NCBI GenBank assembly: GCA_039805545.1
Contig: JBDLUA010000024.1
Location: 1 to 56,803, forward strand
From: Candidatus Parcubacteria bacterium
GTDB lineage: Bacteria > Patescibacteriota > Minisyncoccia > Phycocordibacterales > JAACPR01
Direction: 5' to 3'
DNA length: 56,803 nt
Part shown: one piece after another, positions 16,012 through 50,601 of the stretch
Position numbering within the stretch: position 1 is the stretch's first letter
How the letters are laid out: each line of letters opens with the position of its first letter
Made by a program: the position numbers and the translations under genes
The notes under the pieces: model-generated
The model's database searches: none
The model's input: only the letters and a program-made list of their open reading frames with translations
Told to the model about the DNA's origin: nothing

Positions 16012-17343
16012 TCATTCCAAAATTATTTTCTTATTAATCACAATCACCTTACTCTTAAAAGATTGCAATACTTCTCGCTTTTCTTGAAGTGTTCCTTCTT
16101 TGAGTAGATATTTCACATACGATTTCAAATCCGTTTTCTTTTGAGTTGTGATCTCTGTTTCAGTTGATCCTAATATCTTATTTCTAAACTCACTAAACCT
16201 ATTCATCTCTTGTTCAAGTTTTTGTTTTATGCCGATCATGTTTAAATCAATTTTATCTACGATATCTAGTAATTGTTTTATAAGTTCTTCTTCTCTTATG
16301 TATTGATTCTTACATTGTTTGTTATTAAATCTCGTGCATCCGTAGTAGATATATTTTGCTGTGCTTCCGTCTATTCGTGATTTGTATTTTTCTTCTGCAG
16401 TAATTCCTGAATTGCACATTCCACATTTCATTAATCTTGTGAAGGCGAATTCTTTATTTGTTTTGATAATATCTTTTGAAATGGTCATCTTCTCTCGAAC
16501 TTTTTTATATAGTTCCTGACTAATGATTGGTTCGTGTTTTCCTACGTACCACTTGCTACTTCCTCGAGGATATTCAATCAGCCCACAGTAGAATGCATTT
16601 TGAAGAATAGTATGAACATTGCTGAGTGTGAGAAACTTTCCATTCTTTGTTTTAAATTTTGCATCTTCCTTTAACCATTTAAACACTCTTCTCCCACTCA
16701 TTTTTTCATATGCTACTTTTTCAAACATCATCCGAATAATATGCGATCGTTGAGGATCTAAAATTACCTGACACTTCATATTTCTGTCTGGGTTGGTGAG
16801 ATATCCAGTAGGGGCGACAGAAGGCCATAATCCCATTTCAATTCTATTTCGTAGTCCTCGTTTTACGTTCACACTTTTATTATCATTTTCCAACTTTGCT
16901 TGAGAGCCAAGAATCATGAAGAGGAATTTTTCACTGGGATTGTTGGTGAATTTCTGTCCGTATGTTCGAACTTCTATAATCAACTTTTGATCCATCAAAT
17001 CTACGATTGCTCCCAAGTCACCTGCATTTCTACTCAGTCGGTCAGGATGCCATGCAAGGATCGCATTAAATCTTTGTTCTTTGATCTCTCTGATAAGCTC
17101 ATTAAATACAGGTCTTTGTCCTGTGTCTTTTGCTGAGTGGGATTCTCTTTTAATTTCGACCACATCAAGCCCTTCTCGTTGTGCCATTTGAAGCATCTCT
17201 TTAATTTGTGAATCTATCGAAAGGGCTTGTTTCTCGTCAGATTCACTTGATTTTCTGGTATACAGGCAGTATTTCAGCCTCTCTGGGACTTGTAATGGTT
17301 GTACCTCGTCAGTCGTCACTTGTAGCGGATTTTGCGTTTGCAT
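16012..17343 (-). CDS. large serine recombinase
   Basis: Resolvase catalytic domain (YTRKSSESDEKQALSIDSQ, DRLSRN), a recombinase domain and a Cys-rich zinc ribbon (CGMCNSG...YYGC). Confidence 0.9.
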   Translation of the reverse strand: MQTQNPLQVTTDEVQPLQVPERLKYCLYTRKSSESDEKQALSIDSQIKEMLQMAQREGLDVVEIKRESHSAKDTGQRPVFNELIREIKEQRFNAILAWHPDRLSRNAGDLGAIVDLMDQKLIIEVRTYGQKFTNNPSEKFLFMILGSQAKLENDNKSVNVKRGLRNRIEMGLWPSVAPTGYLTNPDRNMKCQVILDPQRSHIIRMMFEKVAYEKMSGRRVFKWLKEDAKFKTKNGKFLTLSNVHTILQNAFYCGLIEYPRGSSKWYVGKHEPIISQELYKKVREKMTISKDIIKTNKEFAFTRLMKCGMCNSGITAEEKYKSRIDGSTAKYIYYGCTRFNNKQCKNQYIREEELIKQLLDIVDKIDLNMIGIKQKLEQEMNRFSEFRNKILGSTETEITTQKKTDLKSYVKYLLKEGTLQEKREVLQSFKSKVIVINKKIILE

Positions 17344-19300: not shown

Positions 19301-20056
19301 ATGAATGATATTGTCGAACTAATATTTGAAATACAGGAATTTATCAAAAGAATTGATAAGGGGGTCATTAAAGCTCAGGAGGCTGAAGATTTTTTTGCAG
19401 ACAGCATCACGAAAGCTAAAAATATTTACATAATAAATACAGATGAATGGAGGTTGTTGGATAGATGGGAGAATGAAAATGGTTATCATTGGCATCAACA
19501 ATGTAAGTCAGGAACATATGCGGACACTTCAACAAAAAATAAAATCCAAAGTTTAGAATTTAAACTTTTAGAAATTAAAAATATTGATAGTACAAATGTT
19601 TCAAAAAAAGATACAAATATTCCACGTATTATATACCTTAAAGCACAGTACGGTGATGATTTTATTGATTACATAAAAGACGAAGTTGGTGTAGATAATT
19701 TTTTGAAAGATGTATTCACAAGGAAAGAAGAACAAAAGAGAGACTTTATTTTGAATGATAAAAAAGCTGAAACATTTTTTAAGAAATGGGCGAGCTTTGT
19801 TCATAAGTATAAGAATCTTTATGGGCAAGGAATAAGAGATTGTGATGCGATATCAAAATTACAACAAGCAGGAATACTGACGGATGACTCTTTGTATAAA
19901 TTCAGAAATATATTGTTCAAATCGGATTTCGAGCTAAATAAAGAATTTGTTGCGGAACTAGAGGATAATATTATAAAGCTGAATGAAGCTGATTCTAAAT
20001 TAGATCTTTCTATAAACGGGAGAGATAAAAAATTGATTGAGTCAAAGATATGGTAA
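19301..20056 (+). CDS. unknown protein embedded in the type I R-M operon
   Basis: 251 aa. Starts 2 nt after the previous stop and ends 8 nt before the hsdS ATG. I recognise no motif. Confidence 0.5.
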   Translation: MNDIVELIFEIQEFIKRIDKGVIKAQEAEDFFADSITKAKNIYIINTDEWRLLDRWENENGYHWHQQCKSGTYADTSTKNKIQSLEFKLLEIKNIDSTNVSKKDTNIPRIIYLKAQYGDDFIDYIKDEVGVDNFLKDVFTRKEEQKRDFILNDKKAETFFKKWASFVHKYKNLYGQGIRDCDAISKLQQAGILTDDSLYKFRNILFKSDFELNKEFVAELEDNIIKLNEADSKLDLSINGRDKKLIESKIW

Positions 20057-20063
20057 TTATTTT

Positions 20064-21173
20064 ATGAAAAAAATCTGGCAAACAAAAAATATTGAAGATT
20101 GTATAGAAAAGGTTATTTATACAAGCAAGATACAGAGAAAGGATTTTCTAGAATCTGGGGACTTTCCAATTGTTTCTCAAGAGCAAGAATTTATAAATGG
20201 TTACTGGAATAATAGGAAAGATATTCTTAGTGTTAAAAAGCCTCTTGTTGTTTTTGGTGACCACACCCAAATTTTAAAATTCATAGACTTTGATTTCGTT
20301 CTGGGTGCCGACGGAGTAAAGATATTGCAGCCAAAGGAGTTTCTGTATCCAAAATATTTCTATTATTTTTTACAAAATATAAACTTGAGAAGTTTAGGAT
20401 ATGCACGTCATTACCGTTTATTAAAAGAAAAAGATATTAGTTACCCAGAATCTATTGCTGAACAAAAACGAATTGTAAAAATTCTAGACTCAACTTTTGA
20501 AAAACTGGAAAATGCAAAACAAAATACAGAAAAGAATTTACAAAACTCAAAAGATGTTTTTGAATCGTATTTAAAGAGTATTTTTGTAAACACAAATAAA
20601 GATTGGGAAGAGAAAACACTGGGGGATATAGGGAAACCTTCAATGTGTAAAAGAATATTAAAACATCAAACGTCATCAGTTGGTGAAATTCCATTTTACA
20701 AAATTGGTACTTTCGGTAAAACACCAAATGCTTTTATCTCTAAAGAAATATATGATGAGTTTCGTTCAAAATATTCTTTTCCAAAGAAAGGAGATATTTT
20801 AATATCAGCATCTGGAACAATTGGGAGACGCGTGAGATATGACGGTGAACCTGCTTTTTTTCAGGATTCAAATATTGTTTGGATTAGTAATGATGAAAAG
20901 CAGGTTCTGAATGATTATTTATATGTTTTTTATGAATTTTGTGATTGGCAACCATCTAAAGGTGCTACTATTGCAAGACTTTACAATAGTGATCTTACAA
21001 GTATAAAAATATCTTTTCCAAAATCAATTCAAGAACAGAAATTTATCATTGAAAAACTCGACCAGCTCTCTTCACAAACAAAAAGACTGGAATCCCTATA
21101 CAAGAAAAAAATTCAATATATTGAAGAGCTAAAAAAATCTATATTACAAAAAGCTTTTAGTGGGGAATTGTAA
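20064..21173 (+). CDS. hsdS: type I R-M specificity subunit
   Basis: Two target-recognition halves separated by conserved helices (AEQKRIVKILD..., QEQKFIIEKLD...). ATG at 20064 is preferred over the track start at 20037. Confidence 0.85.
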   Translation: MKKIWQTKNIEDCIEKVIYTSKIQRKDFLESGDFPIVSQEQEFINGYWNNRKDILSVKKPLVVFGDHTQILKFIDFDFVLGADGVKILQPKEFLYPKYFYYFLQNINLRSLGYARHYRLLKEKDISYPESIAEQKRIVKILDSTFEKLENAKQNTEKNLQNSKDVFESYLKSIFVNTNKDWEEKTLGDIGKPSMCKRILKHQTSSVGEIPFYKIGTFGKTPNAFISKEIYDEFRSKYSFPKKGDILISASGTIGRRVRYDGEPAFFQDSNIVWISNDEKQVLNDYLYVFYEFCDWQPSKGATIARLYNSDLTSIKISFPKSIQEQKFIIEKLDQLSSQTKRLESLYKKKIQYIEELKKSILQKAFSGEL

Positions 21174-21269
21174 AAGTGAATTAAGTATTAAATTACTAGA
21201 TATTTGATAATATAATTATGGGTGCCCTTATACTATATTATTTACTTTGTGAATATATGAGGGTACTGT

Positions 21270-21353
21270 CGAGGTGTGGTGAAATTGGTATACACGAACA
21301 TTTACCAAATGTTTCCCTATATAGGGGTGCGGGTTCAAATCCCGTCACCTAAA
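21270..21353 (+). ncRNA. tRNA-Leu-like (type II, long variable arm) element with anticodon-position ACC and a defective acceptor stem
   Basis: D-arm ggtgaaattggtatacac and T-arm gcggg-ttcaaat-cccgt resemble tRNA-Leu. Anticodon stem aacat/atgtt with loop ttACCaa. Variable arm ccctatatagggg. Only 5 of 7 acceptor pairs form. The 3' strand can instead pair with 21376-21384. Confidence 0.5.
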
Positions 21354-21425
21354 GTTTGGAAAAACTTCTTATCTTTAGGTGGCGAATTTTATTGAGGATT
21401 GAGAACTAAATAAGAAATGACAGTT

Positions 21426-21474
21426 TGTATACATTGCTTGACTAATGTATACAAACCTATATACTTTGTATACA
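21426..21474 (+). promoter_or_regulatory. fic-hsdR promoter with three phased TGTATACA palindromes
   Basis: TGTATACA at 21426-21433, 21446-21453 and 21467-21474. TTGACT (21438-21443), 16 nt spacer, TATACT (21460-21465). Confidence 0.5.
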
Positions 21475-21498
21475 TTCTAAAAAAGATGTAAACAAACT

Positions 21499-22653
21499 AT
21501 GCAATCAATTCAAATAGGTATAAATAAAGATCAAAAAGAAGGCTTTAAAGCCTTTGTTCCTAACCCTTTTCCTCCAAAGGAAGATTTTGAATTTGACTCT
21601 AAAATAATTAAAAAGAGCAATGAAGCAACAAGACTTCTTGGAAAACTTGATGGAATTACTAAGCTCCTTCCCGACTCAGACTTCTTTCTTCTTATGTATC
21701 TTCGAAAGGATGCAGCTTCTTCAAGTCAGATTGAAGGAACCATGGCAACAATGGTTGATGCCATTGAAGCAGAAGTTCAAGTAAATACAAATATTCCTGA
21801 AGATGTTGATGATATTTTACACTATATTAAAGCTCTTAATTATGGAATCAAGAGAGTTACTGATGAAAATTTTCCAATTTCATTGCGGTTTATATGTGAA
21901 TTACATAAACAGCTTATGAGTAAGGCTCGATCAACACACCATGCATATCCTGGGGAATTCCGAAGAAGCCAGAACTGGATAGGCGGTACAAAACCATCAA
22001 ATGCTCGATTTGTTCCTCCTCCTGTAGAAGATATGCACAGATCACTTAATGACCTTGAAAAATTTATTCATTCAGAGGAACCTACTCTAGATATTATCAA
22101 GGCTGGATTAATACACGCACAATTTGAAACGATCCACCCATTTACTGATGGTAATGGTCGAACAGGAAGAATGCTCATAACTTTTTACTTATGGAAAGTT
22201 GGATTATTAGAGAAGCCTGTATTATTTTTGTCTTCATTTTTTAAAAAACATCAAAAAACATATTATGAAAAACTTTCTACATATCATAGTGTAGATGGAG
22301 ATATTTCAGAGTGGATAGATTTTTTCTTAGATGGAGTTATTGAAATTGCTAAGGAAGCAATAGAAATTGTTGAAAAAATAACAATTCTTAGAGAAAAGGA
22401 TATGTTAAAAATTCAAAAACTAGGAAAGCGTGCTTCAGAGAGTGCTGCTTTAGTGTTGCCAAAATTATATGCTCAACCAATTGTAAATGCACCTCTTGTT
22501 CAAAAATGGACAGGATTTACTCGTGCCGGTGCACAAGCTGTTATAGATCGGTTTATTGAATTAGATATTCTGTCAGTAAAAGACGAAGATAGAAAATATG
22601 GGCAGTCTTATATTTATAAGAAATATGTCGTATTATTTAGTAATGAAGATTAA
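21499..22653 (+). CDS. Fic family protein
   Basis: HPFTDGNGRTGR Fic motif. Long N-terminal and C-terminal winged-helix-like extensions. Confidence 0.9.
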   Translation: MQSIQIGINKDQKEGFKAFVPNPFPPKEDFEFDSKIIKKSNEATRLLGKLDGITKLLPDSDFFLLMYLRKDAASSSQIEGTMATMVDAIEAEVQVNTNIPEDVDDILHYIKALNYGIKRVTDENFPISLRFICELHKQLMSKARSTHHAYPGEFRRSQNWIGGTKPSNARFVPPPVEDMHRSLNDLEKFIHSEEPTLDIIKAGLIHAQFETIHPFTDGNGRTGRMLITFYLWKVGLLEKPVLFLSSFFKKHQKTYYEKLSTYHSVDGDISEWIDFFLDGVIEIAKEAIEIVEKITILREKDMLKIQKLGKRASESAALVLPKLYAQPIVNAPLVQKWTGFTRAGAQAVIDRFIELDILSVKDEDRKYGQSYIYKKYVVLFSNED

Positions 22654-27509: not shown

Positions 27510-27526
27510 ACAACAAAGACCTAACC

Positions 27527-27727
27527 CCTAGAAAACCCTTAGTTCTCTAGGATATGGTCGGAATAAAACCGCTACAGCATAGAAGACTCCTCGTCAGAGT
27601 CGCTGTAGCGGTCATGTATTCGAAAGAGTATATGGGTAATCGAAAGATTATCGCGATGGCGGGGAGTCTTCTGTCCCGACTCACACTCTTCGCTGATTAT
27701 TATCAGTATTAAAAAACCGCTACAGTG
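27527..27727 (+). promoter_or_regulatory. structured leader RNA upstream of HNH/radical-SAM genes, with alternative pairings that include the start codon
   Basis: accgctacag at 27568-27577 and again at 27716-27725, the latter overlapping the GTG start at 27725. Its complement lies at 27602-27612. gaagactcc 27582-27590 pairs with ggagtcttc 27663-27671. Two GAAA-tetraloop hairpins (27617-27630, 27637-27650), one with a G-U pair that forms only on the + strand. Confidence 0.45.
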
Positions 27728-50439: not shown

Positions 50440-50601
50440 AATTCAATCATATATACAGGGAAGTGAGGTGAAATTCCTCCACAGTGCCGCTACGGTTAAA
50501 GTCCGATTACTATATATATGTTCATTAATCCCGAGCAGGAATTTCGATACAATGTATTGTCTCGTCGGCATATTCCTCTCATAAAGAGGTTTTTTATTTT
50601 T
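50440..50601 (+). promoter_or_regulatory. cobalamin riboswitch-like leader with a terminator expression platform
   Basis: acAGGGAAgtgAGGTGaAAttCCtccaCaGtgCCGCtACgGTtaaAGTCCG (50455-50505) resembles the B12 aptamer core. Hairpin cctct-cataa-agagg (50575-50589) plus T-run 50590-50601, just before the ATG at 50602. Confidence 0.5.

What the first reader, a model, noticed from the sequence alone, without database searches (positions are those of the whole stretch)
21262..21395. tRNA-Leu-like element with an ACC anticodon and a broken acceptor stem, inside the R-M/fic locus
The D-arm, long variable arm and T-arm closely follow bacterial tRNA-Leu. The 7-nt anticodon loop reads UUACCAA, with ACC at positions 34-36, which is a glycine-codon reader that bacteria do not normally encode. 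Positions 1-72 and 2-71 cannot pair. The 3' acceptor strand cacctaaag can instead pair with ctttaggtg at 21376-21384 to form a terminator-like hairpin. One possibility is an integration scar. Another is a tRNA mimic or decoy linked to the neighbouring Fic or R-M functions. A third is a mis-decoding tRNA: LeuRS does not read the anticodon, and A73 is present.
Basis: partly seen in the sequence, partly recalled or inferred. Interest (0 to 1): 0.6.

Follow-up and report, generated by a model that had tools for sequence, protein, structure and literature searches.

The report
Leucine-shaped tRNA look-alike, glycine anticodon
A small tRNA-shaped gene with a leucine-tRNA body, a glycine anticodon (ACC) and an unpaired acceptor tip sits as a 249-base insertion inside a restriction-modification operon of a tiny freshwater bacterium. 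It resembles look-alikes found on other mobile and viral DNA that mostly also have open acceptor ends, so it is more likely a non-translating tRNA mimic or a dying copy than a working mis-decoding tRNA.

Summary
ARAGORN and Rfam both call a tRNA at 21270-21353. It has a Leu-type D arm, a long variable arm, a T arm and the loop UUACCAA. Pairs 1-72 and 2-71 are unpaired, and the 3' acceptor strand is buried in a terminator-like hairpin.

It is not a scar of a resident tRNA-Leu, and it is not tied to fic:
- It lies in a 249-nt insertion (21174-21421) between the hsdS stop and a conserved fic promoter/operator.
- Homologous R-M loci lack this insertion, and so do 80 fic loci. The ACC motif was in none of 400 other Patescibacteria genomes, and 60 relatives have no homolog of the spacer.

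Pattern scans found Leu-body elements with Gly anticodons (ACC, GCC, UCC) on 14 metagenome contigs and several viral contigs, mostly next to defence, methylase or tmRNA genes. Their inner helices covary and stay 94-100% paired. In 14 of 17, one or both top acceptor pairs are open, against 2 of 106 canonical Leu and 0 of 58 Tyr/Ser tRNAs.

My reading, in order of likelihood:
- a non-chargeable tRNA mimic from a mobile class (about 0.45);
- a decaying copy of a hybrid-identity tRNA (about 0.3);
- a working Gly-to-Leu decoder (unlikely).

No RNA data exist. This scan has flagged Leu-body/Gly-anticodon tRNAs on other DNA before. I found no description of the bacterial class in the literature searched.

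The parts
20037..21173 (+). hsdS (type I R-M specificity subunit), the gene upstream of the insertion
   Evidence: Pfam Methylase_S, E 9e-34. In homologous loci its stop codon abuts the fic operator.
21174..21421 (+). Roughly 249-nt insertion carrying the tRNA look-alike. It is absent from the homologous hsdS|fic junctions.
   Evidence: Alignment A1 with L012, L014, L019, L062, L063 and L030. The gap from hsdS to fic is about 90 nt in the other R-M loci. No copy of the flanks occurs elsewhere in the genome or in relatives.
21204..21234 (+). Weak promoter-like hexamers, TTGATA (21204-21209) and TATACT (21229-21234), spaced 19 nt apart
   Evidence: Read from the sequence. The consensus scan did not call it, so an own promoter is not established.
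21270..21353 (+). tRNA look-alike (84 nt). Acceptor 5' strand 21270-21276; D arm 21279-21295; anticodon arm 21297-21313; variable arm 21315-21326; T arm 21329-21345; acceptor 3' strand 21346-21352; A73 at 21353.
   Evidence: ARAGORN; Rfam RF00005 at 39.1 bits; model R1 at 88.3 bits; pair table on alignment A2.
21302..21308 (+). 7-nt anticodon loop UUACCAA. The anticodon ACC is 21304-21306.
21343..21393 (+). Terminator-like hairpin (arms 21343-21361 and 21366-21384) followed by a U-rich tract. It uses the end of the T stem and the whole acceptor 3' strand.
   Evidence: the repeat finder I3; RNAfold minimum-energy and centroid structures; only 2% of trailer shuffles pair all 8 positions.
21422..21498 (+). 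Conserved fic promoter/operator (TTGACT-16-TATACT with TGTATACA palindromes). This is the start of the mobile fic cassette and the downstream border of the insertion.
   Evidence: Promoter scan; the same block is conserved upstream of fic in nearly all of the 80 loci from many phyla.
21499..22653 (+). fic (Fic_N + Fic, intact HPFTDGNGRTGR motif), the gene downstream
   Evidence: Pfam; translation; 71-86% identical homologs across phyla.

Best explanation
The element is a small RNA gene of foreign origin. It folds like the body of a leucine tRNA, displays a glycine anticodon (ACC), and lacks a usable acceptor end. It arrived as a roughly 249-nt insertion between hsdS and the mobile fic cassette of a type I restriction-modification island. 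It looks like a member of a patchy, mobile class of Leu-body, Gly-anticodon tRNA look-alikes found in defence and methylase neighbourhoods and on viral contigs. Most of that class also have open acceptor tips while all inner helices are kept by compensatory change.

Shown: the fold, the insertion, the class and its open-acceptor bias.

Inferred: the RNA is made; it cannot be processed and charged like a tRNA, because it has no 1-72 or 2-71 pairs, has G instead of C after A73, and has its 3' strand locked in a hairpin; it therefore acts as an uncharged tRNA mimic. Such a mimic could be a decoy or competitor for some factor that reads the L-shape and a glycine-type anticodon arm during phage-host conflict. 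In cis, its 3' hairpin also places a terminator between hsdMS and fic-hsdR.
For: Both tRNA finders call it. Twenty-three of its 25 cloverleaf pairs are intact, and the anticodon stem is entirely different from that of the nearest tRNA-Leu yet fully paired.

It is an insertion relative to six homologous loci. It is absent from 60 relatives and from 400 other genomes of the phylum. A second, independent aquatic sample holds the same hsdS / tRNA-like / fic joints (records 16 and 17).

Fourteen metagenome contigs and two viral contigs carry Leu-like elements with the same ACC loop, and further viral contigs carry GCC or UCC versions.

On 13 ACC elements the D, anticodon, variable and T helices are 94-100% paired with covariation, reached by 0 of 500 shuffles. 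Pair 1-72 holds in only 4 of 13 and pair 2-71 in 6 of 13.

In a sample not selected on the acceptor, 14 of 17 Gly-anticodon elements have an open top pair. The figures for controls are 2 of 106 Leu and 0 of 58 Tyr/Ser.

Group A (L092, L097, L100, L101, L104) keeps C1 x U72 while its stems change compensatorily.

Neighbours are PIN_8, AIPR, AAA_15 + AbiC, HNH, a Panacea antitoxin, tmRNA, and C5 and N6 DNA methylases.

In a maximum-likelihood tree with the anticodon masked, all 18 Gly-anticodon rows, the window included, fall on one side of one branch. None of 500 label shuffles was as clustered.
Against: There are no expression data at all. The window copy sits on a long branch. Support for the joint clade is weak (16/73), and the AU test rejects neither a place with the class (p 0.34) nor a place with Patescibacteria tRNA-Leu (p 0.26). 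It is as similar to local tRNA-Leu(UAA) (79%) as to the ACC elements (77%). Its G+C is lower than that of every real tRNA in the genome, which also fits decay. Its own promoter is weak and was not called. No partner protein or target is identified, and the neighbours differ from locus to locus, so the decoy mechanism is inference only. Counts across related sequences are not independent: about 8 open lineages against 4 closed ones.
Confidence: 0.45

Rival explanations
1. It is a decaying hitch-hiker. The class consists of real hybrid-identity tRNAs (Leu body, Gly anticodon) carried by mobile DNA. This copy has lost its acceptor end and is drifting towards A+T without any function. Only its hairpin matters, if anything does.
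For: Intact members with 7-bp acceptor stems exist (L091, L107, L109, and L111 with an encoded CCA). The window copy has the lowest tRNA score and the lowest G+C in the genome, and lacks C74. It sits on a long terminal branch. It was not found in any other genome of the phylum that was searched.
Against: Damage is confined to the two top acceptor pairs, while 23 of 25 pairs hold. The same localized defect recurs in about 8 independent lineages whose inner helices still covary. Group A keeps the 1-72 mismatch through later compensatory changes. Neutral decay should hit all helices.
Confidence: 0.3
2. It acts in cis only. The tRNA-shaped fold plus hairpin works as a transcript punctuation, terminator or stabiliser element that separates hsdM-hsdS from fic-hsdR. 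This would resemble the tRNA-like processing sites that RNase P or RNase Z cut within operon transcripts (recalled from general knowledge, not checked here). On this reading the anticodon is irrelevant.
For: The hairpin with its U-rich tail lies exactly between hsdS and the fic promoter, and its stability exceeds chance. No convincing own promoter is present, so read-through from hsdS is the likeliest source of the RNA. The other R-M loci have no terminator at this junction.
Against: Sixteen homologous operons work without it. A plain hairpin would suffice. This reading does not explain the recurrent Gly anticodon or the Leu-type body across unrelated contexts.
Confidence: 0.13
3. It is a working mis-decoding tRNA. 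It would be processed, given CCA by the genome's CCA-adding enzyme, charged by LeuRS through A73 and the class II body, and would then insert leucine at GGU codons.
For: A73, U8, A14, G18 G19, the T loop and the long variable arm are all present. A CCA-adding enzyme gene is present. Nematode nev-tRNA-Gly shows that Leu-type tRNAs with Gly anticodons can be leucylated and can decode (PMC3333845). Intact class members exist.
Against: The C1 x A72 and G2 x A71 mismatches leave a 5-bp acceptor helix. The 3' strand is sequestered in a more stable hairpin. G follows A73, whereas all 34 real tRNAs in the genome have C. Discriminator bases vary (A, G, U) among open-top relatives, so no single charging identity is kept.
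Confidence: 0.08
4. It is an integration scar: a displaced or duplicated piece of the resident tRNA-Leu left behind by an integrase.
For: Islands often sit next to tRNA genes. Normal tRNAs lie about 80-380 nt upstream of the fic start in six other loci. A serine recombinase gene lies at 16012-17343.
Against: The element is full length, not a 3' fragment. It is 75% identical to the resident tRNA-Leu(UAA), and only the D arm matches tRNA-Leu(GAG). No direct repeat of it occurs in the window or the genome. The anticodon differs from every Leu anticodon at all three positions.
Confidence: 0.04

Closest known systems
Bacillus cereus tRNA-Other, a pseudo-tRNA flanking a genomic island (Rogers et al. 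2012, PMC3399842; abstract read)
   Same: Both are tRNA-shaped genes at the edge of imported DNA. tRNA-Other does not work in translation and is thought to act as a tRNA-like module within a longer RNA. Here too the fold is embedded between a leader and a hairpin trailer.
   Different: tRNA-Other is not a class II Leu-type body with a Gly anticodon. It has experimental support (deletion phenotypes, RACE), and this element has none. I tested no sequence relationship between them.
Nematode nev-tRNA-Gly(CCC) and nev-tRNA-Ile(UAU) (Hamashima et al. 2012, PMC3333845; abstract read)
   Same: Both are class II, tRNA-Leu-derived bodies that carry a glycine anticodon.
   Different: The nev-tRNAs are eukaryotic, have intact acceptor stems, and are leucylated and decode in vitro. 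The window element is bacterial, sits on mobile DNA, carries ACC, and has an open acceptor end and no CCA.
Bacterial hybrid-identity tRNAs: tRNAProX with ProRSx (review PMC11415595) and allo-tRNAs (Mukai et al. 2017, PMC5389517, abstract)
   Same: In these tRNAs the anticodon does not match the body identity. tRNAProX has A34. Distribution is patchy in bacteria.
   Different: tRNAProX has a Pro body and a dedicated synthetase gene next to it; none is present here. Allo-tRNAs have 8/4 or 9/3 acceptor/T geometry; this element has a 5-bp T stem and a 5+2 acceptor. All of these are thought to be charged.
Canonical bacterial tRNA-Leu (class II, A73)
   Same: It shares the D arm, D-loop G18 G19, the long variable arm, the T loop and A73. 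It is 79% identical to Patescibacteria tRNA-Leu(UAA).
   Different: The anticodon is ACC. Pairs 1-72 and 2-71 are open. There is no C74. The Rfam score is 39 bits against 51.6-75.3 bits for the genome's other tRNAs, the four tRNA-Leu genes among them.

Membership tests
Functional elongator tRNA (Rfam RF00005 sense) | Cloverleaf recognised by tRNA covariance models above threshold | tested here: met
   It scores 39.1 bits against a gathering score of 29. ARAGORN also calls it.
Functional elongator tRNA (Rfam RF00005 sense) | Continuous 7-bp acceptor stem | tested here: not met
   C21270 x A21352 and G21271 x A21351 do not pair, so only 5 pairs remain.
Functional elongator tRNA (Rfam RF00005 sense) | 3' end compatible with the genome's tRNA genes (C at position 74, either as CCA or as the local N73-C-A form) | tested here: not met
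   All 34 other tRNAs have C after the discriminator; the element has G.
Functional elongator tRNA (Rfam RF00005 sense) | Expression, end processing and aminoacylation | not testable with these tools
   No RNA run holds the locus.
Bacterial tRNA-Leu | Class II body with a 3-bp D stem, a long variable arm and A73 | tested here: met
   The D arm matches the genome's own tRNA-Leu(GAG) at 23 of 24 bases.
Bacterial tRNA-Leu | A leucine anticodon (NAG or YAA) | tested here: not met
   The anticodon is ACC at 21304-21306.
Integration scar (att-site tRNA fragment) | A partial 3' copy nearly identical to a resident tRNA, with the matching repeat at the other end of the island | tested here: not met
   The element is full length and 75% identical to the resident tRNA-Leu(UAA). 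No repeat occurs in the genome.
Mobile Leu-body / Gly-anticodon tRNA look-alikes (seen in this scan; not found in the literature searched) | Leu-type class II body with an NCC anticodon in a 7-nt loop that has U33 and A37 | tested here: met
   It matches the pattern that retrieved L091-L104, L106 and L107. See also alignment A2.
Mobile Leu-body / Gly-anticodon tRNA look-alikes (seen in this scan; not found in the literature searched) | Location on imported, defence or viral DNA rather than in the core genome | tested here: met
   It is an insertion in an R-M island and is absent from relatives.
Mobile Leu-body / Gly-anticodon tRNA look-alikes (seen in this scan; not found in the literature searched) | Common descent with the other members | tested here: inconclusive
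   All 18 Gly-anticodon rows form one side of a branch, but support is 16/73. AU p is 0.34 for a place with the class and 0.26 for a place with Patescibacteria Leu.
Allo-tRNA | 8/4 or 9/3 acceptor/T-stem geometry | tested here: not met
   The T stem has 5 bp and the acceptor has 5 pairs plus 2 mismatches.
Type III toxin-antitoxin RNA (ToxI-like) for Fic | An RNA gene, usually as tandem repeats, conserved upstream of the toxin gene | tested here: not met
   There are no tandem repeats. None of 80 fic homolog loci has such an element.

The most novel reading that the evidence does not exclude
A horizontally mobile family of non-chargeable tRNA mimics exists in bacteria and their viruses. Each has a leucine-type L-shape with a glycine anticodon (ACC, GCC or UCC) and a deliberately open acceptor end. 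The family would be kept by selection as a decoy or competitor for some factor that reads tRNA-Gly-like anticodon arms during phage-host conflict. The copy in this restriction-modification operon would be a working member.
Probability: 0.3. Interest if true: 0.8.

Novelty: new variant of a known kind. Interest (0 to 1): 0.58.

Why it matters
If the class is functional, it adds a new kind of tRNA-shaped non-coding RNA to the set of known defence-island and phage components. It would also change how "tRNA-Gly(ACC)" and "pseudo-tRNA" calls in metagenomes are read. Most of them would be neither translation tRNAs nor junk. They would be mimics that are barred from charging by their open acceptor end.

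The result also tempers the attractive idea, raised repeatedly in this scan, that Leu-body tRNAs with Gly anticodons are mistranslating tRNAs. In an unselected sample most of them cannot have a normal acceptor stem.

For this genome, the practical result is an annotation point. The ARAGORN call tRNA-Gly(acc) should not be counted as a decoding tRNA.

Tried and rejected
- **Expression.** No RNA holder was listed for the locus.
- **Variant in a second sample.** Laying contigs from other samples showed the same joints in one further sample. The individual differences inside the element were not listed, so I could not test whether substitutions are compensatory.
- **Conservation next to fic.** ARAGORN and my own covariance model R1 found only ordinary tRNAs in 80 fic loci and no ACC-like element.
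- **Relatives.** A 325-nt query against 60 relatives hit only normal tRNA-Leu genes. The ACC pattern hit none of 400 other genomes of the phylum.
- **Reference collections.** There was no match in INPHARED phages or PLSDB plasmids.
- **Antisense partner or codon copy** (a lead from earlier scan notes). The TTTGGAAAA at 21355-21363 and the best complementary sites in 12 other elements are all at chance level.
- **Self-masking of the acceptor 3' strand as a class trait.** It is significant only in the window (2% of shuffles) and borderline in L096 (6%). Canonical tRNAs reach 8 of 8 paired positions in 8 of 194 cases.
- **MITE or repeat.** No terminal inverted repeats were found, and no other copy exists in the genome.
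- **Literature.** Six full-text searches found no description of bacterial Leu-body tRNAs with ACC or Gly anticodons, and none of tRNA-like genes in type I R-M operons.
I could not test formally whether Gly is enriched.
- **"ACCA as a 3'-end mimic".** I dropped this idea after finding GCC and UCC versions.

Full report
**What is there.** The window belongs to a 683-kb, 35% G+C, 99.7%-complete genome. Record titles of its gene relatives place it among the Patescibacteria.

ARAGORN reports two tRNAs in the window. One is tRNA-Gly(acc) at 21269-21354. Rfam's tRNA model matches 21270-21353 at 39.1 bits, which is above threshold but the lowest of 35 hits in the genome; the others score 51.6-75.3 bits.

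- U8;
- a 3-bp D stem with the G18 G19 loop;
- a 5-bp anticodon stem closing the loop UUACCAA (ACC at 21304-21306);
- a 5-bp variable arm;
- a T arm with the loop TTCAAAT;
- A73 at 21353;
- two marked non-pairs at 1-72 (C x A) and 2-71 (G x A).

The body is of the leucine type. The D arm matches the genome's own tRNA-Leu(GAG) at 23 of 24 bases. The best overall match is 79% to tRNA-Leu(UAA) of sister genera, against 75% to the resident tRNA-Leu(UAA).

The element is 44% G+C against 47-62% for the 34 real tRNAs. G follows A73, whereas all 34 real tRNAs have C at that position.

The 3' hairpin is real. The pairing extends to 21343-21361 with 21366-21384 and is followed by AATTTTATT. RNAfold keeps the anticodon, variable and T hairpins and this long 3' hairpin rather than the acceptor stem. 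Only 2% of trailer shuffles pair all eight acceptor-3' positions.

**Where it sits.** The surrounding genes are an OLD-type ATPase, a serine recombinase, hsdM, two unknown ORFs, hsdS (20037-21173), fic (21499-22653), hsdR and a ParB-methylase. Fic has an intact HPFTDGNGRTGR motif.

The Fic protein is 71-86% identical in 80 loci from many phyla. In nearly all of them it is preceded by the same block of about 85 nt, made of a promoter with TGTATACA-type palindromes.

About 17 of the 80 loci are hsdM-hsdS-fic-hsdR operons with 62-81% identical HsdM and HsdR. In those aligned, the hsdS stop lies 1-15 nt before the operator. In the window, 249 nt (21174-21421) are intercalated there, and the tRNA look-alike lies in their middle.

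Neither flank of the element has a copy elsewhere in the genome, in 60 relatives, or in the fetched loci. The ACC motif occurs in none of 400 other genomes of the phylum. Contigs of an independent aquatic sample cover 21076-21335 at 92% identity and 21336-21584 at 99% identity. The joints hsdS / element and element / fic therefore exist outside the source assembly.

**Not tied to fic, and not a scar.** ARAGORN and a covariance model built from the ACC elements (R1) find only ordinary tRNAs in the 80 fic loci. Six loci have a normal tRNA (Ile, Ala, Ser, His, Glu, Ala) about 80-380 nt upstream of the fic start. This shows that the cassette tends to land behind tRNA genes, not that it needs a tRNA-like partner.

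The element is full length and diverged from every resident tRNA-Leu. Its anticodon differs from all Leu anticodons at three positions, and it has no repeat that could mark an att site. The scar reading is therefore very unlikely.

**A recurring class.** I scanned for a pattern requiring a Leu-like D arm, the loop TTACCAA and a T loop. It hit 14 metagenome contigs. A relaxed version hit two viral contigs. Allowing any base at position 34 added Leu-like elements with GCC and UCC anticodons.

Rfam sees these only as weak tRNAs, at 34-47 bits.

On an alignment of 13 ACC elements (A2), the named cloverleaf gives 92% paired cells, and 21 of 25 pairs show changes on both sides. None of 500 shuffles reaches these values, and slid controls give 35-59%. 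By helix:
- D, anticodon, variable and T helices are 94-100% paired.
- The lower acceptor pairs 5-7 are 100% paired with covariation.
- Pair 2-71 holds in 6 of 13 elements.
- Pair 1-72 holds in 4 of 13 elements.

The search patterns did not constrain the acceptor, so I compared classes among all class II-like hits with intact inner helices:

| Anticodon class | Elements | Top acceptor pair open |
|---|---|---|
| Canonical Leu | 106 | 2 (pair 1-72) |
| Tyr/Ser | 58 | 0 (pair 1-72) |
| Gly (ACC, GCC, UCC) | 17 | 14 (at least one of the two top pairs) |

The 14 open Gly-anticodon elements come from about 8 independent lineages, and 4 lineages are closed (L091, L107, L109, L111).

Long-arm tRNAs with Asn or Gln anticodons in the same scans are intact. 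They carry their own identity marks (a paired 1-72, G73 and mostly an encoded CCA), so they are a different matter.

Group A (L092, L097, L100, L101, L104) keeps a C1 x U72 mismatch while its anticodon, variable and T stems differ by compensatory changes. This argues for long-term maintenance of the open-tip form.

**Contexts of the class.**
- L092, L100 and L101: a PIN_8 protein and an AIPR protein.
- L095: an AAA_15 ATPase plus an AbiC-like protein.
- L093 and L094: a DUF2971 protein and an HNH protein.
- L096 and L103: the element starts 6 nt after a tmRNA gene that follows smpB, and faces a Panacea-type antitoxin gene.
- L091: a tmRNA gene lies 690 nt away.
- L106, L112 and L115 (viral contigs): a C5 or N6 DNA methylase gene is the immediate neighbour.

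L095 and L100 share an identical element, but their cargo diverges 8 nt after it. The common theme is the boundary of variable, conflict-related DNA, not one partner gene.

**Is the window copy a member?** By traits, yes. By descent, only weakly.

In a maximum-likelihood tree of 47 sequences with the anticodon masked, all 18 Gly-anticodon rows, the window included, fall on one side of one branch. None of 500 label shuffles was as clustered. However:
- Support for that branch is 16/73.
- The window row has a long branch.
- AU tests reject neither a place with the class (p 0.34) nor a place with Patescibacteria tRNA-Leu (p 0.26).

Identity is 79% to local tRNA-Leu(UAA) and 77% to L095/L100.

**How it most likely works.**

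Shown:
- a tRNA-shaped fold with 23 of 25 pairs;
- an anticodon stem unlike that of its nearest tRNA-Leu yet fully paired;
- a defect limited to the acceptor tip;
- a 3' strand locked in a terminator-like hairpin;
- foreign origin as a small insertion;
- a recurring class with the same localized defect.

Inferred:
- The RNA is made, probably by read-through from hsdS. The only promoter-like hexamers have a 19-nt spacer and were not called.
- It cannot enter the normal pathway of processing and charging.
- It acts as an uncharged tRNA mimic that offers a glycine-type anticodon arm on a class II body.

I cannot name the partner. GCC and UCC versions exist, which points to glycine-type anticodon identity rather than to the ACCA string.

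In cis, the hairpin inserts a terminator-like structure between hsdMS and the separately promoted fic-hsdR. The other operons lack such a structure.

I put the mimic reading at 0.45, decay of a once-functional hybrid tRNA at 0.30, a purely cis-acting element at 0.13, an active Gly-to-Leu decoder at 0.08 and an integration scar at 0.04. The genome does encode a CCA-adding enzyme and a weak deaminase hit, so the decoder reading is not impossible.

**Comparison with what is known.**
- The nearest documented case of a pseudo-tRNA beside imported DNA that does not translate and acts as an RNA module is B. cereus tRNA-Other (PMC3399842).
- The nearest case of a Leu-derived body with a Gly anticodon is nematode nev-tRNA-Gly, which is intact, leucylated and decodes in vitro (PMC3333845).
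- tRNAProX and allo-tRNAs are bacterial hybrid-identity tRNAs with other bodies and geometries.
- A 2024 review of mistranslating tRNAs lists no bacterial Leu-body/Gly-anticodon family, and my searches found none.

**Relation to earlier notes of this scan.** Within this scan the theme is not new. Earlier notes list at least ten other windows with Leu-type tRNAs carrying ACC, GCC or UCC anticodons on mobile or viral DNA, mostly read as possible mistranslating tRNAs. One note describes an acceptor-less tRNA-like gene in an archaeal defence cassette (e1-967289).

I treated these notes as leads.
- I confirmed independently that such elements recur.
- I did not find the antisense partner or codon copy that some notes report.
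- I found self-masking of the acceptor strand in this window only.
- I add that, in an unselected sample, the majority of Gly-anticodon members lack a closed acceptor tip.

**Limits.**
- No RNA evidence is available.
- The metagenome and genome collection scans were capped at one each.
- Counts over related sequences are not independent.
- The tree rests on 81 columns.

Noticed in passing
G000:C13:21411-21498 (own genome, outside the window); also C13:6382-6455: The genome carries a well-formed tRNA-Ser with the A34 anticodon ACT (7-bp acceptor, G73, 54.5 bits) in addition to tRNA-Ser(GCT). It also has a tRNA-Ile(TAT) and no tRNA-Arg(ACG); its Arg anticodons are GCG, TCT, CCT and TCG. An A34 serine tRNA is unusual for bacteria.
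   Followed up: no
Own genome, all tRNA genes: Twenty-six of the 34 tRNA genes are followed by C-A after the discriminator (N73-C-A) rather than by CCA or an unrelated trailer. Only 5 encode a full CCA. This looks like a lineage-specific 3'-flank convention.
   Followed up: no
window 21422-22653 and L011-L090: The fic gene and its promoter/operator of about 85 nt, with three TGTATACA-type palindromes, form one cassette. It is 71-86% identical at protein level across Patescibacteria, Proteobacteria, Actinomycetota, Omnitrophota, Bacteroidota and others. It is inserted either between hsdS and hsdR or about 80-380 nt behind ordinary tRNA genes, with no integrase seen.
   Followed up: partly
window 21285-21294 versus 21424-21433 and 21465-21474: The D arm of the tRNA look-alike (TTGGTATACA) matches the fic operator half-site (TTTGTATACA) at 9 of 10 bases. 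The same GGTATACAC D arm is normal for tRNA-Leu in this lineage, so this may be coincidence.
   Followed up: no
window 27518-27652 and 50448-50520: There is a LOOT RNA (64.7 bits) just beyond the R-M island and an AdoCbl-II riboswitch aptamer (48.3 bits), both in a 683-kb reduced genome.
   Followed up: no
L096:4380-4859 and L103 (same sequence); L091:243-1132: In a 32% G+C metagenome contig the ACC element starts 6 nt after the 3' end of a tmRNA gene that follows smpB. In a 61% G+C contig an intact ACC tRNA lies 690 nt upstream of a tmRNA gene. That gives two unrelated lineages in which the element is near ssrA.
   Followed up: partly
L003:1207-1481: Three tandem units of 85 nt, spaced 95 nt apart, each give a weak hit (20 bits) to the class II tRNA model. 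They lie between tRNA-Lys and tRNA-Leu(UAA) in a relative's tRNA cluster.
   Followed up: no
Viral contigs, for example L227, L242, L250, L253, L260 (Asn GTT) and L296, L299, L307 (Gln TTG): These are intact tRNAs with Asn or Gln anticodons, a paired 1-72, G73 and mostly an encoded CCA, but with a long class II-like variable region. They recur in viral contigs: 13 GTT and 5 TTG in a truncated scan.
   Followed up: no
L108, L110, L115, L117 (GCC) versus L179 (AGG): Closely similar viral tRNA look-alikes share acceptor strands beginning GAGCGT and ending TACGA, but carry either a Gly (GCC) or a Pro-type (AGG) anticodon. The anticodon can therefore change within one scaffold family.
   Followed up: no
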